From Mytilus edulis (Eukaryota), in NCBI RefSeq assembly GCF_963676685.1, contig NC_092355.1, positions 63,550,001 to 63,614,000 on the forward strand: a DNA stretch of 64,000 nt, given 5' to 3'. Below are positions 5,623 through 49,077 of the stretch, piece after piece. The notes below the pieces were generated by a model that was given only the letters and a program-made list of their open reading frames with translations, did not search any database and was not told the DNA's origin. The first letter of the stretch is position 1. Each line of letters begins with the position of its first letter. Position numbers and translations under genes: made by a program.

Positions 5623-5926
5623 AATAATTTAATTTTGGATGTAACGCGTCTTCTAATTGGCTGACATTTTTTTGTTATCAGCCCATAGACATAATTAAGT
5701 CATGTGACCGTGACGTCATCAACATTTTTTCATGGTTTTCTACAGTTTAAAATGAAATTTAGAATTAAATTATAAGAAATGACTGAAATATTTTTTCTGT
5801 CTATTCGAAATAACATAAAAAATGATGTGCACACTGTTAAATAACCCGCTACGCGCGTTATTCAGTGTGCACCAAATTTTTTATGTTATTTCTTCAGACA
5901 GAAAAAATATTACAGTCATTCCTTAA
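5623..5926 (+). mobile_element. Terminal-palindrome repeat, family P1, copy 1
   Basis: About 150-bp imperfect palindrome at 5773-5925 centred on TAACCCGCTACGCGCGTTA; close reverse copy at 16797-17105. Confidence 0.8.
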
Positions 5927-6162
5927 TTAACGATAAAGATAACACTATATATTTTGTTTATGGATTCCAATCTTCTAAGTTTGTAAGAAAGTTTCACTTC
6001 ATCAATGATGTTATTTGCAAAAATGCAAATTGATCGGATCAATAATATCATCAAAGGGCAATAACATTATAATGCATCAAAGATATGGTTGAAATACCCA
6101 GTCGAAGCAATTTTGTTCCACCAATTTTAAGGGATTGGAAGAAACAAATCAATGAAACTTAA

Positions 6163-6445
6163 GGTGGTACCTAACACTACAGGGAGATAACTCTCTAAAA
6201 ATCAGCTATACGTTTTAATTACGTTGTGTTGTTAAGGGAATATTAAGCTTCTTAGTGATCAAAATTGTTGTTTGTCAAACTGCTATATAACCAGTGTATT
6301 TTTTCTGACAAAACAGTTGGTTCAATATTTTTGAAATTTTTATATTTTTGTTAAAGGATCCAAAGTAAATACTTTAAAACATTGTCAAAATTTAATTAAA
6401 ATTAAACGATCCAAATTAATTTTAGTGAAAGTGTTAGGTACCACC
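6163..6445. mobile_element. TTAA-flanked MITE, copy 2 (inverted relative to copy 1)
   Basis: TTAA|GGTGGTACCTAACACT ... AGTGTTAGGTACCACC|TTAA. Confidence 0.85.
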
Positions 6446-7746
6446 TTAATTGCAACTGAACAATATCCAAGCAACAAAACAACTTGTACGTTAATTTAGA
6501 AAGCTTGAATCGAATATAAAATATGCAGCATTTTGTATTCGAAAAAAACAGAATAAGACCATAAACTCAATTCATAAGCTGCAGTAAAATAACTTCTATA
6601 TAGTATAGCACTCACTTTACAATTAAACATCAAAATAAAATGAGATTTTGTTTCGCCTCACAAAAAACAATTTCAATTATTATCAAGAATACACATTTTA
6701 CTATTTAATGATAAACAAACAATGAAACAAATTCTGATTTGATGGTACACTCAATTAAAGGATCAAATAAAATGCATAAAATAACTCATTAATTCTTTTA
6801 CATCAATTAGAAGTTAAATTATACAGATTAGTACATGCAAATACACTTTATTTCATTTGTGACAAATATTTATAACATATATTTTAATTGTGGTTTTCTA
6901 TGACTAAAACCTATAAAAATTAGCAATTTTAAAACTAAAATGTATATCAAAATATCACAGTATTCATGGATTTATTGAAACTTATAATGAATGCAGTTAT
7001 AATGGTTGCCAATTCTTCTAGAGTTATGAAAAAAAATGGTTTAGAAATTATTTTTTTGTGTAGGAACTTATTCCTAAGAGATCTTAAGAGTGTTTATGCA
7101 ACTCAAAATCCATAACAGAGAGAAGTTTTGTAATTTTATAGTAAAGTACAAAAATCTTAACAGTTTTTGAAAAAAAAAATCTTCAAATTGTTTGCACAAT
7201 ACACAGATATTCCCTTTTTCTTGTGTTTGCCTTTTTGTCAGATATTCCAAATCATCTTGGTTTTATCCATGTAGTGCCATTCAAAATGTTGCTTGCTAAT
7301 ACAATGATTTTTTTTTTATAGTTTTATTACATGTAGGTTGAAATGCTATTTTCTAAAATCTTATAATATTTAGTTGCATTTTCAAAGTTTATGAAAGAAA
7401 AATAGGCCAATGTTCAACATATGAAAAAATTATACAAGAATCATTTCACACCAAATTTTCAATCGCTTTTATCTGAATAGCACAGATGATGACCTTGCAT
7501 TTTTTCCCTGCTCTTTAGATCCATTTTATATATACTTTAAATTAAAAGGATTGTTTTAAAAACCTAATATCATTAAAGGCAAGTTGCTCTATAGAGAAAT
7601 AGAACTGCATTTTGAATGTAAAAATTTCATTGGACTAGAAAACATTTGTAAAGATACTTGGGACAATTGGTGAAATTTAACATCATTTCTAAATTTCTAA
7701 ATCCATTAAGTACAGGTTTAATGACTGTGTTACCTATAAAAAAATA

Positions 7747-7951
7747 CTGTATAGCGGGGTTATTTTCCTGAGGTGTAAATTTTCGCTTATTTTTGCGGAT
7801 AGAACAAAATCTCCAAAATAAACTCTGCAAGTTTAAATGCGCACATGCAAAGGTATTGATAAAAGTTTTGAATCCGCCAAAATATTTTGAATACCTTATT
7901 CATTCAAAATCGCGAAATTTTACACCTGCTAAAATAACCCACTATATACGG
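7747..7951. mobile_element. TA-flanked Tc1/mariner-like MITE
   Basis: TA|CTGTATAGCGGGGTTATTTT..GGTGTAAATTTTCGC ... GCGAAATTTTACACC..AAAATAACCCACTATATACGG|TA. Confidence 0.7.
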
Positions 7952-7960
7952 TAATCAACA

Positions 7961-8322
7961 ACTATTATTCCATATTGGTATTATTTTATTAGGTTTCTCT
8001 ATATGAATTGGATTTTGAATAAAAAAGCATATTCACCTGAGAAAGTGTTATTCACCGCGTTAAACGTCACGCGATTTTACATGCAACATTACGGTTAAAT
8101 GTTTCATGTAAAATTTGTTTTGGTATATGTTATTCTTTAAATACACGTTCTTCTCTCGGAATATGGAATAAAGCAATAACTGTCTTTTGTTTCGGTAAAT
8201 ATGGGGTTTAATTGACTTTTGAAAAACTGATATTCACTTCGGCCGTCAGCCTTAGTGAATATCATTTTTCAAAAGTCAATAAAACCGCATATTTACCTCA
8301 TCAAAAGACAGTAATTGTATAA
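7961..8322 (+). mobile_element. Terminal-palindrome repeat, family P2, in the DNAJC27 3'UTR region
   Basis: TTATTCCATAT/ATATGGAATAA short inverted pair, then a palindrome at 8174-8317 centred on TCGGCCGTCAGCCT. Confidence 0.7.
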
Positions 8323-8335
8323 TATTGAATGTGTG

Positions 8336-8468
8336 TTATGAACATTTTTTTAACAATGTAGTCCTTGCTGCTACTAAAAGTTTGAAAGCCTCTTCACTAC
8401 CTGGTGCTACACTTTTATCTGGGTGTAACAATACTGCTAATTTTCTGTACGCTTTGTTTACTTCGTCC
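8336..8468 (-). CDS. DNAJC27: DNAJC27 exon 7 (DEVNKAYRKLAVLLHPDKSVAPGSEEAFKLLVAARTTLLKKCS*), J domain with HPD
   Basis: ttttcag acceptor, HPD motif, TAA at 8336-8338; the seven exons sum to 801 nt = 266 aa plus stop. Confidence 0.96.
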
Positions 8469-8516
8469 CTGAAAAAAAGTTAATTGTTATAATAAGTGAT
8501 TTGTATTTCTGTAACT

Positions 8517-8720
8517 CTGTGGAATCATTAATTTTTGTGGGTATCAACTCTCGTGGATTAAGGAAAACATTTGATGGCTATTTGATTTAGTGGTTTTGAC
8601 AATCTCTGCATACAAAACCTGTTGAAAATGTGTGATTCATTAAACATTTGAATTCTTGGTTCACATGTAGCAACGAAAACCATGAAAATTGGTACCCAAC
8701 AAATAATACTGAATCCACAG
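8517..8720. mobile_element. About 200-bp MITE family CTGTGGATTCATT...AATGAATCCACAG; other copies at 9608-9801, 11071-11278 and 51607-51745
   Basis: Shared TIRs and internal CGAAAATTGGTA(C/T)CCAAC motif, mostly TA-flanked; three copies lie in DNAJC27 introns. Confidence 0.75.
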
Positions 8721-8787
8721 TATATGACAAAATCCTCATAATAGTAGAATAGATCCAAAATTTATCCTTCAACTCACACAAAGTCAT

Positions 8788-8964
8788 GAGGGTCTGGATG
8801 GGGGGTCTGTTATTCTGTAAATATTTAATTTTCATCCCTTTTTTCTCTATTCTTCAAAAAATTACCCCCTTTTTTCTCTAATCTTCATTTTTTTTTGCCT
8901 GTTATTCTCTAATCTTCATTTTTAAGGGATTATTCTTTAATCTTTTAACCCCATCCATACCCTC
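8788..8964. mobile_element. MITE with GAG...CTC ends and 6-bp TSD
   Basis: AGTCAT|GAGGGTCTGGATGGGG ... CCCCATCCATACCCTC|AGTCAT. Confidence 0.8.
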
Positions 8965-9086
8965 AGTCATAAAACTAATATATTAGATTGTTTTCAGTTT
9001 GCTCCTAATCTTTGTTGATGAAAATTAAAACCTTAATTTCAATTTGTCACATTTCTTTTATTATACTTATGATTTAAAAAGAAGAG

Positions 9087-9240
9087 CTCACTCAATCAGA
9101 ACTCAAAATATAATACACCTTTTCTTAGGAATCTAAGAAACCGCATTAGTAGTGCTATACAGTCTCACTCAATCAGAACTCAAAATATAATACACCTTTT
9201 CTTAGGAATCTAAGAAACCGCATTAGTAGTGCTATACAGT
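9087..9240. repeat. Tandem duplication, 2 x about 77 bp
   Basis: CTCACTCAATCAGAACTCAAAAT...GTAGTGCTATACAGT occurs twice. Confidence 0.9.
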
Positions 9241-9398
9241 ATTGATAAGATTCAGAGTTGAACACCATGTTTAACCCCAGTCTTTTGTTGAACACTATTT
9301 TCTGACTTTAGAAGTTTTTGATTATTTTCAGTCTATTTGACAATTACCTCACATAAAGTACAATTATTCTTACATACAATAAAACATATTTTACATAC

Positions 9399-9559
9399 TT
9401 GGATGCTCCTATATTAACACCTAGCCTCTCATAATCACTCCTTGCTGCTTTAAGCTTCTGTATAGCCTCAACTTGATCCTTTGAATATCCTAACTGTGTG
9501 GTGAAAGGTGCTTTCTTACCACCATTCTCTACTGCCGATACAACACCCTCAAATAAGTT
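9399..9559 (-). CDS. DNAJC27: DNAJC27 exon 6 (NLFEGVVSAVENGGKKAPFTTQLGYSKDQVEAIQKLKAARSDYERLGVNIGASK), linker and start of J domain
   Basis: ctatag/gtatgt splice sites, 161 nt, open frame; ENGGK and LGVxxGAS as in RBJ. Confidence 0.94.
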
Positions 9560-9835
9560 CTATAGATACAAACAAATTATAGAATAATTAATGGAAGAAT
9601 TCAACAACTGGGGATTCATTATTTTTGTTGGATACAAATTTTTGTGAGCTTCTTGGGTACAGATAAAAAACAACAAATTCAAATATTCGACAAATTACAA
9701 ATTTCTATAAGGTTTGAATGCAGAGATTGGCACAGCCACCAAATCAAATATCACAAAAATGTAAGTTTTCCTCAATCCACGAAAAATACATGAATCCACA
9801 GTATAGAAAAATATTCAAAACATCAATTGATGCAT

Positions 9836-10038
9836 GAGGGTGGTAAAGGGTTATTTTCGTGCAACGTGTTTTGCCATTTTTATTTCACGTGCAGCCGTGA
9901 AAAAGGTTTGTTATTCACCGTGTTTCTTGAAATCGGTAAAAAGATCAACGTGCAAGACTTTTTTAATTGTTCGTTCATCGTGAAATGGCAATTTCATTTC
10001 GCGTTCTTTCGTGCAGATCCCCCGCCTTTACGCCCCTC
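9836..10038. mobile_element. MITE with GAG...CTC ends and internal CGTG repeats
   Basis: ATGCAT|GAGGGTGGTAAAGG ... CCTTTACGCCCCTC|ATGGAT (TSD matches at 5 of 6). Confidence 0.65.
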
Positions 10039-10656
10039 ATGGATGTGCGTAGTGCACAAGTTAATTATCAGTATTTTTCAATATTTGAATTCTTTGATAA
10101 GTTATTCTATATTAAAATTACATTGACAAGAAGCTTTTTTATGGAATCAAAACAGAAAATGTAGGGAACTATTTTTAACTATTTTAATGGAATCAAAGCA
10201 GAAAATGTAGGGAACTATATCTTTTTATACACATTTACAATAAGCTTTGATATTATGTCACCAACATCTTGACCACACCTATTGTTAAAGGAGGAGTGAA
10301 ATAAGAGAGTTTTTTTCACGATTTTTATTTCACTAGGAAATCATGGTAATGATTGCAACTAATGCAATAGGTTATAATATGTTGTGCTGTCACAAAAAAT
10401 GTTTTTTGTTTGTTCTAATGGCATAAATCCGGTTGTTTTGGTTTCTCTTTTCAAATTTTGTCAAGTTGAGGCCTTTTATAGTTTACTATGTGATATGGGT
10501 TTTGCTCATTGTTGGAAGCTGTTTGGTGTCTGGTGTTAGTTGTTTAATTGGCCACCATATCACATCCTGTTATTTGTAAGCAGGTTGATTTAGTAAATTT
10601 AAAATTTCTTTTGTTTAAAAGCTTATCAATAAGCTATAGATATTTTAAGTATTTAC

Positions 10657-10773
10657 CTGAAACATTTCTGTGACACCTTCCCCTGTTTGTGCTGATGTTT
10701 CAAAGTAATGATAACCTCTTGTGTCAGCCCATATCCTACCTTCAGATTCATCAACCACTCTCTTCTTATCAGT
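10657..10773 (-). CDS. DNAJC27: DNAJC27 exon 5 (TDKKRVVDESEGRIWADTRGYHYFETSAQTGEGVTEMFQ), G4/G5
   Basis: tttttag/gtaaat splice sites, 117 nt; completes NK|TD and carries ETSAQTGEG. Confidence 0.96.
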
Positions 10774-11319
10774 CTAAAAAGATCAGAAATATATCAATTA
10801 TGAATGAGGAAACATTATCAAACTACAAAATGTAAAAATTATAAAATGTGAATACAACACTCATTTGGGCTCATTTGTCAGAACAATAATGAGTCCAAAG
10901 GTTAAAAATACATTCCAAATATTCATATTTAGACAGTTTTTTTTTAATCCTATATAGTATATATATTTATATATATTAATTCAAATGCATTGCTTCAATT
11001 GTTGTATTTGATTAAATTACTTTGTGAAATCTTAATATGATAATAAGTAATGGTCTCTGGGCGGCTAATACTCTGGATTCATTTATTTTTGTGGGTATCA
11101 ATTTTTGTGGTTTAAGGAAAGCTTACATATTAGTAGATATTTAATTTTGTGATTTTGGCAAAGTCGACATACCTTCCTTTAAAAAATTGGTAATTCATTG
11201 AATATTTTAACTGGTGGTTCTCCTGTACCCATGGAATCCACGAAAATTGGTATCCAACGAATATTAATGAATTTAGAGTAATTGTTTATCAAATGGACAA
11301 CTAAAAATAATGACAATAC

Positions 11320-11484
11320 CTTATTAGCACAAACACAGACTGCAATGTTATCTACTTCTGACTGGTTCCCTACTTCATTCTGCAGCTCCAATAACCAGGA
11401 ATCCAGTGCCTCAAAACTACTCCTGTCTGATACATCAAATACAATAATGGCTCCCTGAGTATCCTTGTAAAACTCATTTCTTAC
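11320..11484 (-). CDS. DNAJC27: DNAJC27 exon 4 (VRNEFYKDTQGAIIVFDVSDRSSFEALDSWLLELQNEVGNQSEVDNIAVCVCANK)
   Basis: tttag/gtattg splice sites, 165 nt; overlaps track ORF 11179-11391; VRNEFYKDTQG and CANK motifs. Confidence 0.96.
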
Positions 11485-12112
11485 CTAAAAAAACATAAAA
11501 ATTGAAGTTTCACTCATTCTAACATGGTTAGTGTCATCTTCTTTTTTATATTTAGTGTCAAGATGTTCAAGTATGCCCATAAATAAAAATTGATTTCCAT
11601 TTGCATGATGCTGCATGATTTTTTATGTGAAAGTTGGATAAAGAGCTAATCAGGGCTCATGTTTTGTCTGTTATTATGTATGTATATGCCATCTCTAAAT
11701 AAAATTTACTTACTTTCTTTTTTTGGTGAGGCCGATATTGATTTGTAGAGGGTTAGAAGTATACAGTATAACAAATATTTCAACCACAGGACTTTTCCTG
11801 TCAAGATTTGTTAAAAATAAACAATGTAATTGAAATGCAACAACATTAATAGATGCACTTCACCATTAAAAGTAAATGTGACTTCATGAACCCCATATGA
11901 AATCTAATAAACCATAGTAAAGAAAAGTTCATTTTAAAACGTTTTTATAAACATTTATTCCATCTGAAAAACGTTTTGTAAATCATATATTGGATGTTAT
12001 CTTTTTTTTTGGGCCGATCAATGCATTTGAATGGGAGCATATAGTTGGAACCCCCCCCCTTTTTAAAATGGCTAGATCCGTCACTGGTGTTCCTGACATA
12101 TTGTTAACTTAC

Positions 12113-12182
12113 CTCATAGAATATAGGATGTCCAGCCATGTCAAATATATTGACTTTAACCTCTTTATCTCTAATGTTGACT
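12113..12182 (-). CDS. DNAJC27: DNAJC27 exon 3 (VNIRDKEVKVNIFDMAGHPIFYE), G3 DMAGH
   Basis: ttttcag/gtaag splice sites, 70 nt, phase compatible with exon 2; RJL-type DMAGH motif. Confidence 0.96.
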
Positions 12183-12716
12183 CTGAAAAGGTGAGAATTT
12201 GTTTAATTACTTTCATATCAAATTCAATAACATTCGAAACAAATGTATAGCACTTTTAACTTAAAAAGTTCTACAAAATAGCATGTAGCGTAACTTTAAA
12301 AAAACAATGCATCCTAAAGAAGACATGCTATAAATGAAGGCAGTTATAACATGATATGACGCTTAAATATAAAGACTAGATTAAGCATTTGGAGTTCACA
12401 ATTCCACTTCAGCTATTTTCAGGGAACATTTCTGATCAACAAAAGATGGATTCCTCAGGAAAATGTTTTTTTAATGTTTTTGATAAAGTTTTACCCATCG
12501 AAATTAAATTGTTGGAGATTTTGATGAACAGTTAAATAAAATGTGAGGAAAATAACAGTATTTTCATCAAAATGATACGACAATAAAAGCATAGACTTGC
12601 CAAAAAAAGCAGGGTGTCTTAAAAAAAGGGCATACAGCGTCATTTAGAAAATGGCAGACAGCCCTATGAAGACAATCAAGCTGAATTAAAACTACAGAAA
12701 TGTAACATTGACATAC

Positions 12717-12799
12717 TTAGTAACACCATAATCAATTCCAATAGTTGCCAGGTATTTGTGAACAAATCTTTTCTCACAATATCTTTTGATGATACAACT
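12717..12799 (-). CDS. DNAJC27: DNAJC27 exon 2 (SCIIKRYCEKRFVHKYLATIGIDYGVTK), switch I
   Basis: tttcag acceptor, gtatgt donor, 83 nt; nearly identical to the RBJ segment SCIIKRYCEKRFVSKYLATIGIDYGVTK. Confidence 0.96.
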
Positions 12800-13327
12800 C
12801 TGAAATAAAAAGAGAATATATTTTAAAACACATTATGAATTATAAATTTATGTACAATGCAACAATGTTAAACATTGAACCGATGCATGACAAAATCCAG
12901 TGTACCATATTAAAGCTATCACAGAAATACATGTATGAGTTTGTGTACAAAAATCATATTATTTATATTTCAAATAACACTTATACTGGCCATGGTCTGA
13001 AATTGAATTGAATATTTCTGTGCCACTTTGACTCTGCAAATTTGATTGATATTAAATTTAAACACCAGATGGTTGCAGTTTGTTTAGCAATTTTATCATT
13101 TTAAATGGGGTAAATTCCAAATCAATTACTTGCAATATAATTAATTATGATAAATAAAATTTAAAAAAAACTGATTGGTTTCATTTTAAAATACTTTACA
13201 TTCAGTTGCAAAAATAAATAATTACATTTCAATTACTTTTGTGCTGAATTTCAAAAAAGGTAATTAATCATAAAGAATTAAAACATAGGAACCTGTTAGT
13301 ATGAGGCTTTACATGTTGTTTAACACT

Positions 13328-13550
13328 GATTTGATTTGAAATAGCTTATAAGCACCACATTTAGGCTATTTCGTGGCGGCCAGTTTTTATTGGTAGAGAA
13401 AACTGGAGTGCCTGGAGAAAACCACCAACCTTCGATAGGAAAACTGACAATCCTAGTCAATTAAGATTGGAGTCAAGCGCACACCAGTGGGGTTCGAACT
13501 AACAACCTTACACCTTGGCTAGGGATTACACTGTAGTCACTCAGCCCAAG
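13328..13550 (-). mobile_element. tRNA-derived SINE with V-domain-like core (bivalve BivaV-like)
   Basis: Minus strand: A-box-like GGCTGAGTGA, B-box AGTTCGAACC, core GGTGGTTTTCTCCAGGCACTCCAGTTTTCTCTACCAATAAAAACTG, (AAATC)n tail. Confidence 0.7.
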
Positions 13551-14444
13551 ACTTATCATAATTCAATGTCTTTCATAAATTTTGGCGATTTTTTATCGTT
13601 AAATAAATTCCTATTTATCAATGTTTAAAAGTCATGTAAGTTGTTTTGGTTTTTTGGTGTGTATTTTATAATACAATTGATTTATTTTGTTCAGTTAATA
13701 TGGGGATGAGGTCCCCAATTACGATAGAAAAAACAAAAAAATTCAGGAAAATTTCCCGAATTTTTCATTCTACTAATGAACTCAAAATCGTTAACTTTTT
13801 TTCAGATCTACTTTCTTTTCCGGTCTTGTTTGCATGAGACTTTGAATACAATGTATATTTATCAACATATCAACAAGTAGGAAGGAATTCAACACCCAAT
13901 CATTTTTAATAATTGTTTGATATGAAAAAACGTTATCTGGATAACTGACAATCCTAGTCAATTAAGATTGGAGTCAAGCGTACACCAGTGGGGTTCGAAC
14001 TAACAACCTTACACCTTGGCTAGGGATTACACTGTAGTCACTCAGCCCAAGACTGATCATAATTCAATGTCTTTCATAAATTTTGGCGATTTTTTATCGT
14101 TAAATAAATTCCTATTTATCAATGTTTAAAAGTCATGTAAGTTGTTTTGGTTTTTTGGTGTGTATTTTATAATACAATTGATTTATTTTGTTCGGTTAAT
14201 ATGGGGATGAGGTCCCCAATTACGATAGAAAAAACAAAAAAATTCAGGAAAATTTCCCGAATTTTTCATTCTACTAATGAACTCAAAATCGTTAACTTTT
14301 TTTCAGATCTACTTCCGTTTCCGGTCTTGTTTGCATGAGACTTTGAATACAATGTATATTTATCAACATATCAACAAGTAGGAAGGAATTCAACACCCAA
14401 TCATTTTTAATAATTGTTTGATATGAAAAAACGTTACCTGGATA
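13443..14444. repeat. Near-identical tandem duplication, 2 x 501 bp, in DNAJC27 intron 1
   Basis: AACTGACAATCCTAGTC at 13442 and 13943; duplicated track ORFs at 13646 and 14147; about 6 mismatches. Confidence 0.95.
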
Positions 14445-15027
14445 ACAGCGTTTCTTTGTTTACATTGAATATTATGTCATTTATAACTTAAATAACGTCA
14501 CAACTAAATCCCTAACAACAGAACCAATATCGGAAACGTTACGGTATTTCCGTTTCTTTTATCAACATCAACATTGAATTAAAATAAAAATAATACAGAC
14601 TTCGTCCCCATTCACAGGTAATGCCTGCCTCATATTAGTGCAGATAATTTGATTTTGCTTAGAAATGGAGTGTAATGGGCTACAAAAATAAGTAACAGAG
14701 GAGGCAGAAATATATGATACAGATAACTATGGGAATTTTAAAAGTACAGTGCATCATAAGCCTATGAAGGCTGGCTGAAAAAATATGTTTCATATTTGTA
14801 TTATAATGTTATATCACTATTATTATTATCAGGCTGCACTTTAATAAAACAATATATATATATATGCCAATCAACTGGTATGTGTTATACATTGTATTTA
14901 TAGTGCAAATATGTCTGCCCCAAAATATCTATAATATGATATGCACCCCCTGTGCAAGGCTGTGCCAAGGCAAGGGGCAGCTAGCAGCTCTACAAAATAA
15001 AAATAAACAACAGTAACAGTAAACTAC

Positions 15028-15099
15028 CTTTCCAGCTTCAGCATTTCCCATGCTGATTATTTTAATACGCAATGACTTTTTCATTTTGCCCATTTCCAT
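15028..15099 (-). CDS. DNAJC27: DNAJC27/RBJ exon 1 (MEMGKMKKSLRIKIISMGNAEAGK), P-loop
   Basis: ATG at 15099 with an in-frame upstream TAA; the peptide matches the RBJ N-terminus LRIKVISMGNAEVGK; GT donor follows (AAG|gtagt); 72 nt. Confidence 0.93.
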
Positions 15100-15351
15100 A
15101 TGATCTTGGTTTTACAACATATTTGTCATTGCAGTCAAAAATGGTTGAACCTGATGAACCGGTTTTGGAACTTTTCAGTAAAGTTTTTGGGACCAATTTC
15201 TATAAGAAATCACACAGGTGTCTTTCTATTCGTCATGATAGATAGTGGTAAACTACTGAAATGTCTTAAACTATGTGCTGTCTTTGCTTTAATCTTGTAC
15301 CATGTCACATTTTTCTTAGGAATGTTTTATAAGCGTCGATGGCAACTCCAA

Positions 15352-15359
15352 CCGGAAGT
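15352..15359 (+). promoter_or_regulatory. ETS/GABP-type motif CCGGAAGT in the probable DNAJC27 promoter
   Basis: Exact consensus about 250 bp upstream of the ATG in a locally CpG-containing stretch. Confidence 0.45.
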
Positions 15360-16796: not shown

Positions 16797-17105
16797 TTAA
16801 GGAATTGACTGTAATATTTTTTCTGTCTATGAAGAAATAACATAAAAAATTTGGTGCACACTGAATAACGCGCGTAGCAGGTTATCTAACAGTGTGCACC
16901 ACATTTTTTTTATGTTATTTCGAATAGACAGAAAAAATATTACAGTTATTTCTTATAATTTAATTCTAAATTCCATTTTAAACCATAGAAAACCATGAAA
17001 AAACGTTGATGACGTCACGGTCACATGACTAAATTATGTCTATGGGCTCATAACAAAATAACGTCAGCCAATCAGAAGACGCGTTACATCCAAAATTAAA
17101 TTATT
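16797..17105 (-). mobile_element. Terminal-palindrome repeat, family P1, copy 2
   Basis: Reverse complement of 5623-5926 over the full length. Confidence 0.8.
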
Positions 17106-17943: not shown

Positions 17944-17985
17944 GCGTCCAAAGCGCTCTTCTGGATTTTCCTTCATCAGGAACGG
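17944..17985 (-). ncRNA. Degenerate minimal type I hammerhead ribozyme (Penelope/retrozyme type)
   Basis: Minus strand CCGTTC-CTGATGA-AGGAAAATCCA-GAAG-AGCGCT-TT-GGACGC: stem I, core box, short stem II and palindromic stem III are present, but GAAA reads GAAG. Confidence 0.5.
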
Positions 17986-18365: not shown

Positions 18366-18949
18366 NNNNNNNNNNNNNNNNNNNNNNNNNNNNNNNNNNN
18401 NNNNNNNNNNNNNNNNNNNNNNNNNNNNNNNNNNNNNNNNNNNNNNNNNNNNNNNNNNNNNNNNNNNNNNNNNNNNNNNNNNNNNNNNNNNNNNNNNNNN
18501 NNNNNNNNNNNNNNNNNNNNNNNNNNNNNNNNNNNNNNNNNNNNNNNNNNNNNNNNNNNNNNNNNNNNNNNNNNNNNNNNNNNNNNNNNNNNNNNNNNNN
18601 NNNNNNNNNNNNNNNNNNNNNNNNNNNNNNNNNNNNNNNNNNNNNNNNNNNNNNNNNNNNNNNNNNNNNNNNNNNNNNNNNNNNNNNNNNNNNNNNNNNN
18701 NNNNNNNNNNNNNNNNNNNNNNNNNNNNNNNNNNNNNNNNNNNNNNNNNNNNNNNNNNNNNNNNNNNNNNNNNNNNNNNNNNNNNNNNNNNNNNNNNNNN
18801 NNNNNNNNNNNNNNNNNNNNNNNNNNNNNNNNNNNNNNNNNNNNNNNNNNNNNNNNNNNNNNNNNNNNNNNNNNNNNNNNNNNNNNNNNNNNNNNNNNNN
18901 NNNNNNNNNNNNNNNNNNNNNNNNNNNNNNNNNNNNNNNNNNNNNNNNN
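18366..18949. other. Assembly gap (584 N)
   Basis: Run of N. Confidence 1.
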
Positions 18950-24794: not shown

Positions 24795-25502
24795 TTAATA
24801 CCGTTCTTTGACCTATAAAAGTTTACTTTTACAAATTTGGACTTGCCTTTGGATGGAGAGTTGTCTCATTGGCACGCATATCACATCTTCTTAGATATTA
24901 TCTATAAAATAACTTCAAAAGATTTTAAAATCAGTCACAATCATATGCTTCATTTATATATACATACAACCTCAAGTTATGTTGTAAAAATAAAAGTTAA
25001 AATCCTATTGCATATACATTTGACAAAATAAAAAAAAAAGTTTACATTAAATTTGATTTTGAAATAATATCAGGTATTTTGTATTGCAAATATTTACTAC
25101 TAAATTTACTAAATAGAATTATGACAGTGTAAAATAAATAAAATTTAAGGTACTTTAAGTTTCTTTTTTTCAAAAATGCATGCTAGAATATTGAACTGCA
25201 ATTACATATTTTTTAGCGACTTGTTATATTTTAGTACAATAGTAAAAGGCATGACAGGAGAATTATAACAATTACGGTAAAACGAAACGACAGGTGCCCG
25301 TTTAATATGCAATTAACGATTTCCCCGCAATCATTATACTTTCAGTGTTGATTAGATTAAACAGTTAATGTATATTGGCGTTAATTAAATGATTATCACC
25401 TTTAATGGTTTAATAGGTAGTTATATTAATAATTAATACACAACATTTCCCCAATAGGCACCCTATCGCTTGACCTTTCAACTAATCACAAAGCATTGAC
25501 GT

Positions 25503-25630
25503 AAACATGGCGGCCACCATGGATGTGTGTATTTCTCGTTCCTAATGGATTTAGTTGAAAATATGTTTGAAATTGGGTAAAATATTGTTGATTCGAAATG
25601 ACAGTCTAGAGTAATAGGATCAAATGTTCC
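25503..25630 (+). promoter_or_regulatory. EXT1 5' leader/promoter: YY1-like AAACATGGCGGC followed by several upstream ATGs
   Basis: Motif at 25503-25514; upstream ATGs at 25507, 25519, 25545, 25563, 25598 and 25624. Confidence 0.5.
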
Positions 25631-26532
25631 ATGCAGGCCAAAAAGCGATATTTTCTTTCAATTCTTCTAGGGATTATCATATGTTTATTGTGTTTTTTGG
25701 GTACAAAGCTCCATAAAAATTCACACCATGGAAGAATTTTTCAAAGGAATTTGTACAGTTTCTTTGACATCGAGGATGAAATCTTTGAAGAGGACTTGCA
25801 CTTGTCCTCTAAACAAAGAAGAGAAACCGCATCTGAGTCCAAAAAACAGCGTTGTAGAATGGAAACCTGCTTTGATTTCAATAAGTGTAAACTCGGATTT
25901 AAAGTTTATATTTACCCCATTCAAGAAAGGGTTTCAGAAACCTATAGTAAAATCTTACGGACCATTCAAAATTCCATATATTATACATCGGACCCGGAGC
26001 AAGCATGTGTATTCATTTTATCCATTGATACATTAGATCGTGATACTCTTAGTAAAGACTACGCCAAAGATATCCAATCTAAATTGGACCAATTGTCGTT
26101 ATGGAATAATGGTAAAAATCATATTGTTTTAAATTTATATTCAGGAACTTGGCCAAACTATATAGAAAGTTTGGATTTTGATATAGGCGAGGCAATGATT
26201 GCCAAGGCAAGTTTATCTGTGTTCAAATTCCGCCCTGGATTCGATATATCGTTTCCGTTATTTGCCAAAGAACTCCCCGAAATAGGTGGGGAAAGAGCTT
26301 ATGTGTATAACTCTATAAACAACATCCCACCGTTTCGAGAATATTTATTAGGATTTAAAGGAAAAAGATATTTAACAGGAATCGGTTCAGAAACGAGAAA
26401 TTCACTCTACCATATTCATAACAAAGAGGATATAATTTTATTAACTACATGTAGGCATGGAAAAAACTGGCAGAAAAAAGCAAGGGAATTAAATGATACA
26501 AGATGTAAAGTTGATAACGAAGAATATGACAA
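25631..26532 (+). CDS. EXT1: Exostosin-1 exon 1: type II membrane anchor and most of the GT47 exostosin domain
   Basis: Starts MQAKKRYF as vertebrate EXT1 does; hydrophobic anchor; motifs CRMETCFDF, DTLDRD, WNNGKNH, NLYSGTWP, FKGKRYLTGIGSETRN, TTCRHGK; ends AA|gtaagt (phase 2). Confidence 0.97.
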
Positions 26533-26749
26533 GTAAGTTAAAAATAACATTACATAAACTAAGGTTTATATATACAATATTACAATTATGTATGTTTGTA
26601 AGGACATGAAGAGCAGCTATTTCTTCCCTGTCCCCTCATTAGAATGTTTCAGTTATAATACAGGAGGGGTCAGAACAAGAAAAATCAAGCAAAGAAATCA
26701 TAGTGAATCCAACATGTCCAAAGGAAAGCTTTATAATAGATTTGTTTTT

Positions 26750-28648
26750 AGCTCACCTGGCCTAAAAGGCCATGTGAGCTTTTCTCATCACTTGGCGTCC
26801 GTCGTCGTCGTCGTCGACGTCGTCGTCGACGTCGTCGTCGTCGTTAACTATTTTTCAAACATCTTCTCCTCTGAAACTACTGAATGGATTTGAATGAAAC
26901 TTAACATGATTGTTCCTTAGTATATCCTGCACAAAATGTGCGCTTCGATTTTTGATCCGTCAAAAAACATGGCCGCCGTTACTTAAAATAGAACATAGGG
27001 GTCAAATGCAGTTTTTGGCTTATATCTCAAAAACGAAAGCATTTAGAGCAAATCTGACATGGGGTAAAAATGTTCATTAGGTCAAGATCTATCAGCCCTG
27101 AAATTTTCAGATGAATCAAACAAACCATTGTTGGGTTGCTGCCACTTAATTGGTAATTTTAAGGAAATTTTGCAGTTTTTGGTCATTATCTTGAATATTA
27201 TTATAGATAAAGATAAACTGTAAACAGCAAAAAAGATCAGCAAAGTAAAATCTACAAATAAGTTAATGTGACCAAAATTGTCAATTGACCCCTTAAGGGG
27301 TTATTGTCCTTTAATGACAATTTTTCACAATTTGTTCATCATATTTGCTAACTTTAAAAAATCTTCTCCTCTGAAACTACTGAATGGATTTGGTTAAAAC
27401 TTAGCATGATTGTTCCTTAGATTATCCTGCACAAAGTGTGTGCTTTGATTTTTGATCCGTCAAAAAACATGGCCGCCGTTACTTAAAATAGAACATAGGG
27501 GTCAAATGCAGTTTTTGGCTTATATCTCAAAAACGAAAGCATTTAGAGCAAATCTGACATGGAGTAAAAATGTTCATTAGGTCAAGATCTATCAGCCCTG
27601 AAATTTTCAGATGAATCAAAAAAACCATTGTTGGGTTGCTGCCACTTAATTGGTAATTTTAAGGAAATTTTGCAGTTTTTGGTCATTATCTTGAATATTA
27701 TTATAGATAAAGATAAACTGTAAACAGCAAAAAAGATCAGCAAAGTAAGATCTATAAATAAGTTAATATGACCAAAATTGTCAATTGACCCCTTAAGGGG
27801 TTATTGTCCTTTAATGACAATTTTTCACAATTTGTTCATCATATTTGCTAACTTTAAAAAATCTTCTCCTCTGAAACTACTGAATGGATTTGGTTAAAAC
27901 TTAGCATGGTTGTTCCTTAGATTATCCTGCACAAAGTGTGTGCTTTAATTTTTGATCCGTCAAAAAACATGGCCGCCGTTACTTAAAATAGAACATAGGG
28001 GTCAAATGCAGTTTTTGGCTTATATCTCAAAAACGAAAGCATTAAGAGCAAATCTGACATGGAGTAAAAATGTTCATTAGGTCAATATCTATCAGCCCTG
28101 AAATTTTCAGATGAATCAAACATCCAATTGTTGGGTTTCTGCCACTTAATTGGTAATTTTAAGGAAATTTTGCAGTTTTTGGTCATTATCTTGAATATTA
28201 TTATAGATAAAGATAAACTGTAAACAGCAAATATGATCAGCAAAGTAAGATCTACAAATAAGTCAATTTGACCAAAATTGTCAATTGACCTCTTTAGGAG
28301 TTATTGCCCTTTAAAGACTTTTTTCACAATTTGTTCATCATGTTGACTTACTTTAAAAAATCTTCTCTTATGAAACTGCTGTATCAATTTCAGCCAAACT
28401 TAGGCTAAATGAGTTTCAGAGTTTCAGAGTATCTAGTATAAATTTTATATTTCATTTCCTTGTATGTCAAGAAACATAGCTCCTATGGCTAAAATAGAAC
28501 ATAGGAAAAAATGATTTTTTTTTGCTTTTGAAGAAAATAGGAAGATTCAAAGAACATTTAAATAAATTGAAAAGCCAAAATAATCATTGATGAGAGATTA
28601 AACCAAAAAAATTCAGGTGAGCGATTCAGGCTCTTGAGAGCCTCTTGT
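26750..28648 (+). mobile_element. Full-length Helentron-associated (HINE-like) element with 3 x 500-bp internal tandem array
   Basis: T-run, AGCTCACCTG..GTGAGCT, (GTC)n, units starting at 26861, 27361 and 27861, 3' CAGGTGAGCG, hairpin AGGCTCTTGAGAGCCT, CTTGTTT. Confidence 0.88.
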
Positions 28649-31447
28649 TTTTATAAATCAAAAATTTTTGCTTTATTTTGAATTTATCTTGAAATCATAT
28701 TTTACTGCATTTTTTTTTTTTAAGATTTGCCTTTTCTTTTTTTCATTTGTAAAATTTCATTTCCTCAAAAATGAAAAGCGCCCGGTTTCATAAACCAAGA
28801 TTTAGGTTTTACCAGTGAAAGGTGGGCAAGATATAAATAAAAATTATGAAATTTCCTTATTACAGGTATCGTAAATGTACCCACTACAAGTAATTTACAT
28901 AAGAAGTTGTAAATTACCATTGACAAATTTGAAGCTTCAATAAAAATATAAACTATATAAAAGGCATTTAAAATGAAGAAAAAAAAAATGCACTAGACTA
29001 CATGTATGTGGATGTTGATATCAAATCTCTTGAATTGAAAGGAAATTTACAACTTATAAATATTGTATTGTCATTTATATTCAGTGTGGGAATTTTATTT
29101 TCAATGTTTCACATAATCACGATAATAATTCAAAATATGAAAAATTAAATGCAGATTTAAAAGGTATAATAAAACCTGTTTTTTGTGAATTTGAGTACAA
29201 AACACTTGAAACAGAACTGTATTTGATAAAAACCTTTAGTTTACCCATGCATGTACATTTAAACATGCAGTTGAAGCTCATTCATTAAATTTACACACAT
29301 GTCAAACATTGTCGTAAAATTAAAACAATTTCTATCAGTAGACATAAATTTTCTATTGAATCATTTTGAATACAAAACCCTATTTAAGCCAAATCTTTGG
29401 TGAAATAGTGTTGACTTCATTTTTGAAGTAGTTAAAACTTAATTTTCTTTGACACAAGTTTTGTGTGAAGTTAGGTTGAGATTATCCAAATTTAATAGAA
29501 AAATCAAAGGAAAGATTTATATATTACATGTACATGTATATTGGCCAAAGAATTAATCTGACAAGTTTCGAGTCTTGATATGTTCAGAAAATATGCAGCC
29601 TTAATCATGTTAATAGGTTAATTTAAATTAATGAAAATTAAGTTCATGTTTTATTTTTATGCTTTATCTACGATAAAAGAGGGGTATAATTTTTCTGGTC
29701 TGTCCATGTGTTTATTTGTCCATTTGTTCATTCACTCGTACATTCGTTTGTTTCGTCCCTCTGTCCTGCTTCACCAAGTTGAACTCTAATCAACTTGAAA
29801 CTTTATACAAATGATCCTTATGATATGATCTTTTAAACTGTAATGCCAAATTAGAGTTTTGACCCCAATTTCACGATCCACTGAACATAGAAAATGATAG
29901 TGCCATTGGGGCATCTGTGTACTATCATGACTATGGACACATTCTTGACATCTTGTTTTTTTTCTGTGAGAGACTTGAATACGACATTTTAGTATTTACT
30001 GCAAAAAGCACAATCACTTATTTTGGCAAAGGTTCCAAAGATGCCCTGTACCAAGTCAGGAATATGGTCATTGTTATATTATAGTTCGTTTCTGTGTGTA
30101 TTACATTATTACGTTGTGTCGTTTGTTTTCTCTTATTTTTGAGTGTTAATTCACATTGCGATAAGACGTGTCACGGTACTTGTCTATCCCAAATTCATGT
30201 ATTTGGTTTTGATGTTATATATATATGTTATATTTGTTATTCTCGTGGGATTTTGTCTATATGTGTTACATTTTAGTGTTATGTCGTTGTTCTCCTCTTA
30301 TATTTAATGCGTTTCCCTCGGTTTTAGTTTGTTATCCCGATTTTGTTTTTTGTCCATGGATTTATGAGTTTTGAACAGCGGTATACTACTGTTGCCTTTA
30401 TTTTACAAGAAGTTGAGATTATGAAATATATGATACTCCTACATAATCCTACATGTAGCTGTATTTATTGGTGAAAATACCAAATTAATTCAACCTTCAC
30501 CTAAAGTTGTATCTTGCACTGGTAAATCCACATTTAATTATTTTTTTCAGTGTTGTGTTACATTATGTTCAGGCATACAAATACAAACAATATATATATA
30601 TATATATGTCTGACACTTAGACACTAAGATCATATTAAAATACAAAATTAAGTTTATCTTACTTTATGAGATGAATCAGATATATACTTACAATTATAAA
30701 ACACATGATAAATGCATTACCAGTAACATGCATTTAACTGTGCATTTTATGAAAATTTGAATTTCACTTTTTACCATGCATGGTCATGGCAAAATTTGAT
30801 AGATGTATGTTCTCTTGAATTCTGGAAATATTCTAACATATATAGGATGACCAGCTGTAAAAAAGGGTCAGGTTCCACATTATAACATGAAAATCACTTT
30901 TTGCCAATTACATACATGTATTAAATAGGTTTAAAAAGAAATTGGCATTAATTCCTTTATTATCCATATACTATATATAATTGTATTTTTGTACATGTAT
31001 ACTACAAATAAACATAACATTTGGCTGTTTTCTGCCCTTTGGTCGGGTTGTGGTCTCTTTTTTGACACATTCCCCATTTTCATTCTCAATTTTACATGTA
31101 TGTGTGTTTGTGTCATCTTGGAATTGTAGATCATCTAGGACTCAGCAAAGACTGGTCATTTATAATGTTTATTTATATCAGTGCATGGAAGTATTATATT
31201 GACAGGAACTACTACGACTCGACTTCAAACGGTTCATCTGCGATGCCGCGTACCATTTAATGACATGTTAATTAACTTGAAACATGGCACTATATTAATA
31301 CACCAGCGTGTGGCACATTGCGATAAAGTCATGTGTCGGTTGTTTCCGGGGTACGGCAATACACGAAGAAAGCGGATGTTGTCATAAATCCTAAGGAAAC
31401 AGTTTATACACACGTGTATAGATGAATGTGAACGAGACATACAATCA

Positions 31448-32159
31448 CAGAGATGCAAACAGTTTTTTTTTCCTGTCAGACAATGGGGCCTACAGGGTAC
31501 CAAGTTTTGCCAGACCCATCAAATTTCTGCCAGACCCATATTTTCACTCAAAAATCAAATGAAATTATGCTATTGAACAAACGTTAATTTTGATTTTGTT
31601 GATATTATTATTATTTTAAAATAACCTGTGATTCATAACAATTGTAGTTTATTGAATAATACATTACATAATATTGATCTGATTAAAAGTTATTCTTCAC
31701 AAGAGTACTTGGAAACAAGATAGTCATTGGTAGTTTGGTCTTTTACCGGGTTTCGACCCACTTACAAATTTTATCGGCCATGACATATTTCCTGAACTTA
31801 TCAACTATGCTTAATAGACCTCCTTCCTAGAGAGCGAATTTCTAAAACAAAAAACATGACGGAAATACGGAGAATTGTTCGGGGCGAGATGGACAAGGTA
31901 CGAAAGACTATTACTGGGCGGAAATACTGGTTCCCGGAGTTAGAAAATGCGGGGGAACAGGACATTTACTTTTATTAAAGATGATCGCAATTTTATAAAC
32001 AAAATACTCTGCCGGGGCCGACGGGGATTTCAGTTTTGGCGGACCCAAGCGGACTTAAATATTGCCGGCCATCAGGTCCTGCACAGCTACGAGTTTTGCC
32101 GGACCTGCATAAATTCTGCCCCTTAGGTCCGACGGGTCCGACGATTAGTTGCATCTCTG
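31448..32159. mobile_element. 712-bp hAT-like non-autonomous element with 6-bp TSD
   Basis: CAATCA|CAGAGATGCAA ... TTGCATCTCTG|CAATCA; subterminal GGACC/GGTCC repeats. Confidence 0.85.
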
Positions 32160-32184
32160 CAATCATTAATTCCAAAGAAACACT

Positions 32185-32397
32185 TTGACAAAGGATGAAT
32201 TTAAGACAAATAATATACCCGATGATTTTTTTTCCTCACATTTTGAAAGTGAGATATCTTGTTCGTGTAAAACGGATGATTCGTCACATCTTATCGAATG
32301 TAAAAGCAAAGATTGCAAAATAAAATTTTATTACATACAATGTGTTGGATTGCAAATTGGCAGCGATGGACCCTTGGATTGGATATGCTGTGAATAG
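32185..32397 (+). pseudogene. Decayed PHD-finger coding fragment, probably transposon-derived
   Basis: CSC..LIECKSKDC..FYYIQCVGL..WICCE*: C4HC3 spacing with His replaced by Tyr and the last Cys position a stop; no ATG or splice context. Confidence 0.6.
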
Positions 32398-33454
32398 TTT
32401 TATAAATTGACCATAATTTGTTTAGTGAGAGTTAGTGAGAGTTTTATGTCTCTAGCATATTTTGATTTTTCGTATGGTAGGTGGTGAGCAGTTCTCTTTT
32501 CTGTAGTTCCACATAAACGACAGTTATGTACCAAAGGGACAGTCAAACTCATAAATCATAAATGAAAAAGACAAACAAACAACAGCACACACGACACAAC
32601 ATAGAAAACTAAAGAATAAACAACATGAACCCCACCAAAAAACTAGGGGTGGGGTTAAAAATTAGACCGTTAAATACATGTACAATTGTATATTTTATGT
32701 GTCTAAAGATTTTGTATGTTGTTTCTTTGGCATCTTTATCATGATTGACAAGTATGAACATATATATCTATATACATTGAAGACCTGTTGGTGACCTTCT
32801 GCTATATATTGTTTTTTCTATGGTCAGGTGGTTGTCTCTTTGACACATTATCCATTTCCATTCTCAATTTTATTATATATAGAAGTCAATAAAAAGGACC
32901 AAGCAGCAAATGTACTATGTACCAGATCGTCTATTCTTTTAGACGATACTATGCAGATAAGGAAAAAATTATATCAGTCTAAACAATTTTCACAACGTTA
33001 CTGATATAAGATGTTATTATACGAAAAATGATGTTATTAAATCGTGTTGACAAATATATATAGGATAGTTTTCAGAGAATATAAAATATAAGTCACAGGG
33101 GATACAGTGTATTGGGTTGATACATTTCAAGTTCTAGGAAATTCAAGTCTGTGCTGTCTTCAATTGCCATATCTAATTTGTGCACACCCAAGCATACATC
33201 TGTACATACATATATGGCCCGTTCATATATACTCCATATATTTAGTACAAAATATACATGCATCACCATCAGTCAACTGCAAATTATGCATGTACATGTA
33301 CACAGAATTAATTTTCATCACATCATCAAACAGTAGCAATACTCTTTCATTACCTATTCAGACTTTTTGTAATAAATCAGTTTTATAGCAAACTAAAGGA
33401 AAACAGTAGGTTTAAGATAACAAATTATTGTGTTGGGTATGTCAGTACAGAGAC

Positions 33455-33737
33455 TGACACATGAATCATGGCTGTTTAATTATACAGTCTGTCAAGTCAA
33501 GTGTTTGCTTCTGTAACAAGAAATAGAGGGGGTATAGAGGAGGGTGACATGTGAATCATGGCCGTTTAATTACACAGTCTGTCAAGTCAAGTGTTTGCTT
33601 CTGTAACAAGAAATAGAGAGGGGTATAGAGGAGGGTGACATGTGAATCATGGCTGTTTAATTACACAGTCTGTCAAGTCAAGTGTTTGCTTCTGTAACAA
33701 GAAATAGAGAGGGGTATAGAGGAGATTGACACATGAA
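33455..33737. repeat. Tandem repeat, 3 x about 91 bp
   Basis: TGACATGTGAATCATGGC..GTCAAGTCAAGTGTTTGC..GGGGTATAGAGGAG. Confidence 0.92.
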
Positions 33738-34132
33738 GCTCTGATCTGAAGGGATGGCCAAAAATATTTGTCTGTTTCATAAGAGTTTCCTATCTACTGT
33801 GTCAAAAATTGATCTAGTAGAATCTGAAATTATAATATTTGCATGTCTCTAAATGTCTTGATAATTTAGATTACTAATCTATGATACATGTATATTTGAT
33901 TTTGTAACAAGTTAGAAAAGGGACAAAAAATTTTCTGAATTAAACATTGTGCACTAGTACTACATTAGATTTATTGGCGCCATGCCGTACATGTATAAAA
34001 TATAAAAAATTAAAGGACATGTGTCGTCATCAATGCTCACTACTATAGTACATGTAGTATGACTCGGTCTGTTTATTTTTGCGACAACTGTTTGCAAAAT
34101 CCAAAGAACAAAAATTTGAACATTTATTTATT

Positions 34133-34522
34133 ATAATTACACCTTATGTAAGAATCCTGGATTTTGATTGGTTGATAGCTAGTGTATTTTTCACCAATTT
34201 ACTGTTATCAAATGCATATCGTTCATTTTTTAACGCCGCCGGGGTATTTGCCAAAAAGATATGCCTTTTTTACCCTCTCTGCCGTGGTATTTGCCAAAAA
34301 ATACTCTATCGAACTGGACGCTTGTAACGTCACGATCATCAATGCGTTTTTGAACATTAACATTCGGTGTAATTAAACAGATATATCATGTTCTTGAGGG
34401 GTATTTGCGAAAAATACCAGTCTTGAGAATGAATTTCCCTCGCCTTACGGCTCGCGAAATTTACCATTCTCTCGACTGTTATTTTTCGCAAATACCCCTC
34501 CTTAACATGATATATCTGTTTA
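34133..34522 (+). mobile_element. Terminal-palindrome repeat, family P3
   Basis: TAATTACACC/GGTGTAATTA short inverted pair, then a palindrome at 34374-34522 centred on CTCGCCTTACGGCTCG. Confidence 0.75.
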
Positions 34523-49074: not shown

Positions 49075-49077
49075 TCA

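What the first reader, a model, noticed from the sequence alone, without database searches (positions are those of the whole stretch)
5623..34522. Three sequence-unrelated repeat families share one asymmetric terminal-palindrome architecture
Seen: elements at 5623-5926 (and its copy 16797-17105), 7961-8322 and 34133-34522 show no extended similarity by eye but are built alike. Each is 300-390 bp and has a 10-17 bp motif at one end, then an ATTGG-type box (ATTAGG in P2), an internal ACGTCA, the inverted partner of the end motif, and immediately a 145-150 bp imperfect palindrome to the other end. The palindrome centres are small CG-rich hairpins (CGCTACGCG, CGGCCGTCAGCC, CGCCTTACGGCTCG). I see no end-to-end TIRs, TSDs or poly(A), so they fit neither MITEs, SINEs nor the HINEs here. 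Inference: a class of non-autonomous elements recognised by structure, possibly moved by a tyrosine recombinase (Crypton-like) or a hairpin-primed/rolling-circle mechanism. This is the best candidate for an under-described system, though it may already be in repeat libraries as unclassified or Crypton.
Basis: partly seen in the sequence, partly recalled or inferred. Interest (0 to 1): 0.7.

Follow-up and report, generated by a model that had tools for sequence, protein, structure and literature searches.

The report
Mussel Cryptons with self-pairing hairpin ends
Three abundant gene-less repeats are short relatives of mussel Crypton "jumping genes" (longer recombinase-carrying versions were found for two of them), and their joined ends are predicted to fold on one DNA strand into a long hairpin that likely serves as the insertion site, as in bacterial integrons, which would make the untested movement of Cryptons directly testable.

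Summary
The architecture is real. P1, P2 and P3 are young, abundant elements with sharp ends, no TSD and no TIR. P3's two ends (about 90% identical) enclose an intact DUF3504 tyrosine-recombinase ORF in a 2.1-kb element, and P2's enclose a two-exon one; P1 has only truncated recombinase-linked relatives. They are non-autonomous CryptonA-type elements.

The layout is a … a′ B′ loop B, where a′B′ is an inverted copy of the circle junction B|a and is 2 nt shorter (14 of 14 elements folded, chosen for showing the layout). Targets are weak palindromes with a 6-bp spacer, opened at one edge, with no spacer carry-over. Sheared G·A pairs occur on one strand only (16 vs 0), the strand a tyrosine recombinase would cut there, whichever way the ORF runs.

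Best model (inferred): a folded single-strand circle, one strand exchange and replicative resolution, as in integron attC and CTXφ. Core flips are rare (2 of 112), which argues against rolling-hairpin replication. The ATTGG and ACGTCA boxes are not part of the core.

I found no paper describing this end structure; Repbase and Dfam could not be checked. This scan reported the same reading earlier, in this genome and others.

The parts
5624..5926 (+). P1a, non-autonomous element (303 bp); presence/absence polymorphic
   Evidence: Ends from 47 copies. Contigs of runs X1, X5 and X7 skip it at the orthologous site (joint 5618->5934, 13 letters between, 12 expected).
5624..5634 (+). P1a end motif a (recombinase half-site, inferred)
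5763..5773 (+). P1a internal inverted partner a'
   Evidence: exact 11-bp complement
5774..5926 (+). P1a terminal palindrome B'-loop-B; the minus strand at 5848-5854 reads GCGTAGC, a mini-hairpin motif
16797..17104 (-). P1b, second P1 copy (a at 17094-17104, a' at 16955-16965)
7965..8321 (+). P2, non-autonomous element (357 bp); ends shared with the 2.6-kb recombinase element L353:157-2768
7965..7976 (+). P2 end motif a
   Evidence: exact 12-bp complement of a'
8160..8171 (+). P2 internal inverted partner a'
8172..8321 (+). P2 terminal palindrome; tandem G.A pairs below the tip on the minus strand
34134..34522 (+). P3, non-autonomous element (389 bp); ends shared at about 90% with the 2.1-kb recombinase element L148:4761-6869
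34134..34143 (+). P3 end motif a
   Evidence: first 7 nt invariant in 38 of 38 copies
34366..34375 (+). P3 internal inverted partner a'
34376..34522 (+). P3 terminal palindrome; tip 34439-34454 forms a C-GTAA-G loop over a tandem G.A pair on the minus strand
5656..5718 (+). ATTGG (5656) and ACGTCA (5713) boxes of P1a; the equivalents are 8007/8064 in P2 and 34167/34327 in P3. Conserved within each family but not part of the shared end architecture.

Best explanation
P1, P2 and P3 are gene-less, multi-copy elements that insert without target duplication; P2 and P3 share both ends with longer DUF3504 tyrosine-recombinase (CryptonA-type) elements that likely mobilise them, and all three likely move as a single DNA strand whose joined ends are predicted to fold into a long hairpin that would act as the recombination site. 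Shown: the layout a...a'B'-loop-B, in which a'B' is the inverted circle junction B|a, 2 nt shorter; weakly palindromic targets with a 6-bp spacer opened at its right edge; a constant element-side spacer; one-strand polarity of the hairpin mismatches. Inferred: the bottom strand (palindrome at its 5' end) is peeled out as a circle; a pairs with a' and B with B', giving a duplex site with an asymmetric 7/5-nt spacer; the recombinase exchanges only this strand with a double-stranded target; replication resolves the junction, as for integron attC and CTXphi. Copy number could rise because the donor's other strand remains as template.
For: Partners: P3 1-58 and 229-394 match L148/L149 at 89-90% around a 453-codon ORF with R, K, HxxR, H and Y motifs, DUF3504 E=2e-13 and Phage_integrase E=3e-8, and a Cre-like fold (pLDDT 83, Foldseek E=2e-8). 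P2's ends flank a two-exon recombinase in L353. a and a' change together: 1 pair between P3 and F472, 2 pairs between P2 and L353. Empty sites show 0-bp gain or loss at 8 of 9 P3 sites, 2 of 3 P1 sites and 1 of 2 P2 sites. Target symmetry peaks at a 6-bp spacer in all three families. The last six bases are constant (43/47, 30/33, 36/38 with one C/T position), and left flanks match them only in 2 of 118 cases, both at the tandem locus L055. The junction is 2 nt longer than its internal copy in 14 of 14 elements folded. Bottom-strand mismatches in 11 families: purine-purine 50 vs pyrimidine-pyrimidine 18 (p=1e-4), G.T 15 vs A.C 4 (p=0.02), tandem sheared G.A 16 vs 0 in 9 of 11 families. C-GN(N)A-G loops are on the bottom strand in 7 of 11 and on the top in 1. 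The polarity holds in the three families whose ORF runs the other way (F426, F339, F385). The right edge of the spacer is where a tyrosine recombinase cuts the bottom strand (recalled rule).
Against: No intermediate was seen: no end-to-start joint among the 15 joints shown for L148, and almost no RNA reads on the ORF in the one RNA run laid. Nearest-neighbour energies favour the bottom strand only slightly (10 of 13, by 1-5 kcal/mol; P2, F584 and F369 go the other way). F369 has a nearly perfect stem with its GAA loop on the top strand. The families may share ancestry, so the p-values overstate independence. The 10 autonomous families were chosen from 18 because the layout was visible, with ends set by eye from 2-6 copies; 8 were unresolved. 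P3's 7/5 spacer assignment is ambiguous because of an AT repeat (9/7 scores as well). No full partner was found for P1 among 191 recombinase-bearing stretches (partly the same loci). The P1a empty allele has 13 letters where 12 are expected. The model sits closer to Cre than to the integron integrase 2a3v (rank 34), and I did not test for an I2-like insertion.
Confidence: 0.6

Rival explanations
1. Same recombinase, but the published Crypton model: a double-stranded circle recombines at a short microhomology. The palindrome and a'B' are binding or regulatory sites in duplex or cruciform DNA, and the CGAG pairs are direct-repeat protein sites rather than sheared pairs.
For: This is the proposed model in PMC13565253 and PMC13465315. 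The right target half resembles a (up to 5-7 nt in P2). The fold is Cre-like. Folding-energy differences between strands are small.
Against: A double exchange across a random 6-bp spacer should leave donor spacers at some left junctions and variable right ends; this is not seen in 118 copies except at a tandem locus, including copies picked by interior sequence only. In duplex form the junction spacer is 7 and the internal one 5, against 6 in targets. The model does not explain the G.T-over-A.C bias or the one-strand loops.
Confidence: 0.27
2. DIRS-like copying through RNA: a'B' is an internal complementary region that templates the joined ends during reverse transcription supplied in trans, and the recombinase then integrates the circle.
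For: DIRS elements have an internal complementary region (PMC13465315; that it matches the joined termini is recalled). Tandem G.A and G.U pairs also stabilise RNA (recalled).
Against: Partners encode only a recombinase. The stabilised strand follows end geometry, not ORF direction. GCGN(N)AGC loops are far more stable as DNA than as RNA (PMC13037366). The 2-nt difference between junction and internal copy would be erased by templating.
Confidence: 0.06
3. Rolling-hairpin or HUH rolling-circle replication primed from the terminal palindrome.
For: Long terminal hairpin, no TSD, tandem copies, occasional flipped cores (L242, L147).
Against: Flips are 2 of 112 classifiable copies, not about half, and involve only the inner core. 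The long partners carry a recombinase, not a Rep. Targets look like recombinase sites.
Confidence: 0.04

Closest known systems
CryptonA DNA transposons and their non-autonomous derivatives (Kojima and Jurka 2011, PMC3212892; Glomhoppers, PMC13465315)
   Same: Single DUF3504 tyrosine recombinase, no TIR, no TSD, short derivatives that share both ends with the long element and far outnumber it.
   Different: PMC3212892 says no terminal repeats were found in animal Cryptons (the four CryptonA/I supplement rows seen read n.d.). Here the ends carry a short asymmetric inverted repeat, an inverted junction copy and a 95-185-bp strand-polar palindrome, and the target is a spaced palindrome rather than a fixed 4-6-bp direct repeat.
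Integron attC cassettes (PMC2727003, PMC4792948)
   Same: One strand folds into the recombination site, unpaired asymmetric central spacer, single strand exchange with a duplex partner, replicative resolution (inferred here).
   Different: Eukaryotic; the element encodes its own recombinase; targets are degenerate genomic sites, not attI; the stem is much longer; no I2 domain or conserved extrahelical base was demonstrated.
CTXphi integration by XerCD (passage in PMC4792948; site details recalled)
   Same: Two inverted half-site pairs in a single-stranded circle anneal into a duplex-like attachment site.
   Different: CTXphi hijacks host XerCD at dif and makes ssDNA by rolling-circle replication; the source of ssDNA here is unknown.
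Helentron/HINE elements (PMC8969392, passage)
   Same: Asymmetric terminal inverted repeats plus hairpin, no TSD.
   Different: Their hairpins and ATIRs are small and they are moved by Rep/helicase; here the stem is about 75 bp per arm and the partners encode a recombinase.
DIRS retrotransposons (internal complementary region)
   Same: Internal sequence complementary to the termini; tyrosine-recombinase integration.
   Different: No RT, no long ITRs, and DNA-type loops here.

Membership tests
CryptonA | Autonomous partner encodes a single DUF3504 tyrosine recombinase (P2, P3) | tested here: met
   P3: L148 ORF, PF12012 51 bits against cut-off 29.7. P2: L353 two-exon ORF with the same motifs, tblastn E=7e-35 to the P3 partner; not itself scanned against Pfam.
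CryptonA | Autonomous partner for P1 | tested here: inconclusive
   Only 72-76% matches to P1's a'B' region downstream of recombinase ORFs, with truncated stems (L363, L365).
CryptonA | Catalytic R-K-H-R-H-Y residues and recombinase fold | tested here: met
   (Cre/Tre best hits; QRICH1 complex at rank 6).
CryptonA | No TIRs and no TSD | tested here: met
   empty sites at gap 0.
CryptonA | Short direct repeats or microhomology at the termini | tested here: met
   The right target half resembles a over 3-5 nt, imperfectly and variably.
CryptonA | Phylogenetic placement with named CryptonA elements rather than other Crypton groups | not tested
   No Repbase reference proteins were at hand; the assignment rests on DUF3504 = CryptonA in PMC13465315.
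Integron-type single-strand recombination | Folded site with asymmetric unpaired spacer | tested here: met
   In silico only: junction 2 nt longer than the internal copy in 14 of 14 elements folded.
Integron-type single-strand recombination | Strand-specific structural determinants | tested here: met
   Mismatch and loop polarity; sheared G.A and GNA loops instead of attC extrahelical bases.
Integron-type single-strand recombination | Only one strand exchanged; replicative resolution | tested here: inconclusive
   Consistent with the lack of reciprocal junctions; biochemistry needed.
Integron-type single-strand recombination | I2 insertion in the integrase | not tested
   The model's best matches are Cre; 2a3v is rank 34. 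No residue-level comparison was made.
MITE (TIR/TSD) | End-to-end TIRs and TSD | tested here: not met
Rolling-hairpin / Helentron | Flip/flop cores at about equal frequency, or a Rep partner | tested here: not met
   2 flips of 112; recombinase partners.
DIRS-like retrotransposon | RT/RNase H in the autonomous partner | tested here: not met
   The 2.1-kb and 2.6-kb partners hold only the recombinase gene.

The most novel reading that the evidence does not exclude
Animal CryptonA elements are eukaryotic single-strand recombinase transposons: a family-wide rule (inverted junction copy 2 nt short, 7/5-nt spacer, 6-bp-spaced palindromic target opened at one edge, sheared-G.A and GNA-capped stem on the exchanged strand) defines an attC-like folded substrate that evolved independently of integrons, and it supplies the missing end definition for animal Cryptons.
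Probability: 0.55. Interest if true: 0.8.

Novelty: new variant of a known kind. Interest (0 to 1): 0.62.

Why it matters
A 2026 review states that Crypton transposition has not been shown experimentally and assumes a double-stranded circle (PMC13565253), and the founding paper found no terminal repeats in animal Cryptons (PMC3212892). This locus set gives exact ends, target rules, an intact enzyme with a matched short substrate, and a strand-specific prediction, so the mechanism can be tested with oligonucleotides. If true, it extends single-strand tyrosine recombination from bacteria to animals, and it gives a structural rule for classifying abundant unclassified repeats.

Tried and rejected
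P1 partner: none complete among 191 recombinase-bearing stretches, partly the same loci. The split P1 hits in L178/L212 are an internally deleted P1 inserted inside another Crypton, not a parent. Further stretches could not be taken, so this stays open.

Generic a/a' detector: it flagged 60 of 123 recombinase loci, but its null rate was 529 of 3600 positions, so it is not used as evidence.

Folding energy as a strand test: weak; mismatch counts were used instead.

ATTGG and ACGTCA as core features: rejected.

Flip by the recombinase as a routine step: rejected here. Flips are rare, and in L242 the flip boundary lies inside the arms, not at the junction.

Circle junction and expression in public runs: none shown. 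Contigs drop rare forms and 6% of one RNA run was read, so this is no evidence of absence.

PDB sequence search: only XerA at E=0.19. No recombinase gene in the window itself. The look-up of earlier notes by sequence gave only unrelated hits.

Literature: searches listed no paper describing this end structure. Kojima's Genes Genet Syst review is not held, and Repbase/Dfam entries could not be searched; either may already note palindromic Crypton ends.
Full report
OBSERVATION. P1a and P1b are 93% identical; P1, P2 and P3 share only short AT-rich matches. The genome has 1.37 Gb with 14 large contigs; I take it for a mussel by inference. First-look candidates were 2579, 951 and 1158 (these are not copy numbers). 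From two searches per family (full-length and interior-only, 30 loci each) I kept 47, 33 and 38 distinct full copies. Loci that were duplicates or lacked an end anchor were dropped. Median identity to consensus is 97.7, 97.5 and 99.5%, biased upward because the searches return the best matches. The end motif a has an exact inverted partner a' (11, 12, 10 bp) abutting the palindrome, far beyond chance (47-142 of 200,000 shuffles). P2's ATTAGG is private to 1 of 33 copies, and ACGTCA is missing from both long partners.

ENDS AND TARGETS. There is no modal TSD. Paralogous empty sites were found by blasting left and right flanks separately. They show gap 0 at 8 P3 sites and gap 1 at one; gap 0 at 2 P1 sites and -9 at one diverged site; gap 0 at 1 P2 site and -14 at one. 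The other P2 rows were tandem or self-rearranged matches. P1a is absent at the orthologous site in 3 of 4 runs laid, with 13 letters where 12 are expected. Flank counts give P1 YAW-N6|WTR, P2 ATAA-N6|WTAT and P3 ATTT-N6|AAAT. Symmetry peaks at spacer 6 in each family, only narrowly in P1 (1.83 vs 1.70 of 4). The element enters at the right edge of the spacer. Its own last six bases are constant, and target spacers are never replaced by them except at one tandem locus. Tandem copies (L055, L037, L067) display the end-to-start junction directly.

PARTNERS. A DUF3504 search scored 150 of 430 candidates. P3's first 58 and last 166 bases match both ends of a 2.1-kb element at 89-90% (L148, L149; L147 has a deleted arm) and a 3.1-kb family at about 80%. 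The enclosed ORF is intact, with R, K, HxxR, H and Y motifs, hits DUF3504 and Phage_integrase, and folds like Cre. P2's ends enclose a two-exon recombinase in L353:157-2768, which has one stop in its 3' tail. P1 has only truncated relatives downstream of recombinase ORFs (L363, L365). Ten of 18 recombinase families inspected show the same layout; eight were unresolved. a and a' co-vary across 2-3 kb. Covariation within the arms is also seen, but arm-to-arm conversion could produce it.

GEOMETRY. a'B' read backwards is the circle junction B|a minus two bases, in 14 of 14 elements folded. This is secure for P1-P3 and F463, which have many copies or tandem junctions, and less so where ends were set by eye. 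Scoring the target's left-half profile on the element puts it 7 nt from the cut on the junction strand and 5 nt on the internal strand in P1 and P2; P3 is compatible but ambiguous. The 5 follows from the 7 and the 2-nt rule, so it is not independent. Neither duplex site thus has the target's 6-bp spacer.

STRAND POLARITY. On the strand carrying the palindrome at its 5' end, 11 roughly independent families give purine-purine 50 vs pyrimidine-pyrimidine 18, G.T 15 vs A.C 4, and tandem sheared G.A 16 vs 0. The exact GCGN(N)AGC mini-hairpin is on that strand in 4 of 11 families and on the other in 0; the looser C-GN(N)A-G loop is on it in 7 and on the other in 1. These loops are much more stable as DNA than as RNA (PMC13037366, passages). 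The polarity holds when the ORF is reversed (F426, F339, F385), which argues against transcription-linked bias or an mRNA fold. Against: F369 is reversed at the tip and nearly perfect, energy differences are small (10 of 13), and shared ancestry inflates significance. Tyrosine recombinases cut each strand at the 5' edge of the spacer (recalled), so an exchange at the right edge is a bottom-strand exchange, the same strand that carries the stabilisers. Core flips are rare: 0 of 44, 0 of 31 and 2 of 37 classifiable copies; interior-only sets gave 0 of 20, 0 of 23 and 1 of 24, with 10, 7 and 6 unclassifiable.

MECHANISM. Identity as recombinase-mobilised non-autonomous Cryptons: about 0.95 for P2 and P3, about 0.85 for P1. 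The most likely route (0.6) is a folded single-strand circle, a single strand exchange and replicative resolution, like attC (PMC2727003 and PMC4792948, passages). How the strand is released is not shown; the reverse reaction, with the right end folded against a'B', is the simplest guess. The main rival is the published duplex-circle model (0.27). No intermediate or expression was observed.

KNOWN WORK. PMC3212892 (passages; four supplement rows) reports no terminal repeats in animal Cryptons. PMC13465315 (passages) equates DUF3504 with CryptonA and describes only short direct repeats. PMC8969392 (passages) says the same. PMC5753468 (passages) links Eulor5/6 to Cryptons, with no occurrence of 'palindrom' or 'hairpin'. 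PMC13565253 (passages) says the mechanism is undemonstrated. Searches listed nothing describing these ends; one review and the repeat libraries were out of reach.

EARLIER SCAN NOTES. Note e1-9576252 prompted my look at tip polarity and flips. I wrote down the single-strand model, before seeing that other notes in this genome and elsewhere reach the same reading. Those notes are unchecked and are not independent support.

VERDICT. Real; CryptonA-type non-autonomous elements with an end architecture I did not find in print, and a testable mechanism. New variant of a known kind; interest 0.62.

Noticed in passing
window 6159-6449 (related copies near 5020-5295, 37268-37569, 46543-46728): High-copy TTAA-flanked element with 22-31-bp TIRs, an ordinary MITE of piggyBac/Kolobok type (label recalled); absent from a contig of run X7 at this site.
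   Followed up: partly
window 7745-7953: A 209-bp high-copy element with 42-bp imperfect inverted ends lies 11 bp left of P2.
   Followed up: no
window 60866-60952: Perfect 42-bp arms around a 3-nt loop with no CG-rich tip, unlike the Crypton palindromes.
   Followed up: no
window 49046-51631; 38621-39376; 57358-58080; 35931-36335; 26848-28403; 13438-14238: Tandem arrays with units of 65/66, 30/40, 28, 31, 500 and 501 bp.
   Followed up: no
L178:6169-6389 and L212:4955-5175: An internally deleted P1 copy sits just downstream of the ORF inside both copies of the F369 Crypton, so it was carried along with it.
   Followed up: partly
L084; L240; L312; L328: Cryptons nest in each other: P3 inverted inside P3 (L084) and P3 inside another family's palindrome (L240); L312 and L328 hold clustered or inverted end structures.
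   Followed up: partly
L144-L146, L141-L143, L170-L171 versus L148, L150, L153, L157: The palindromic end lies upstream of the ORF in some families and downstream in others.
   Followed up: yes
L230, L236, L274, L282, L307, L310: Many copies have deletions inside the palindrome, and others are cut off in it by unrelated sequence, consistent with hairpin instability.
   Followed up: no
L130-L132, L205, L207, L210: A near-identical DUF3504 family (about 99%) with three separate palindromes downstream of the ORF; its ends were not resolved.
   Followed up: no
window 18366-18949: 584-base run of N; nothing inferred.
   Followed up: no
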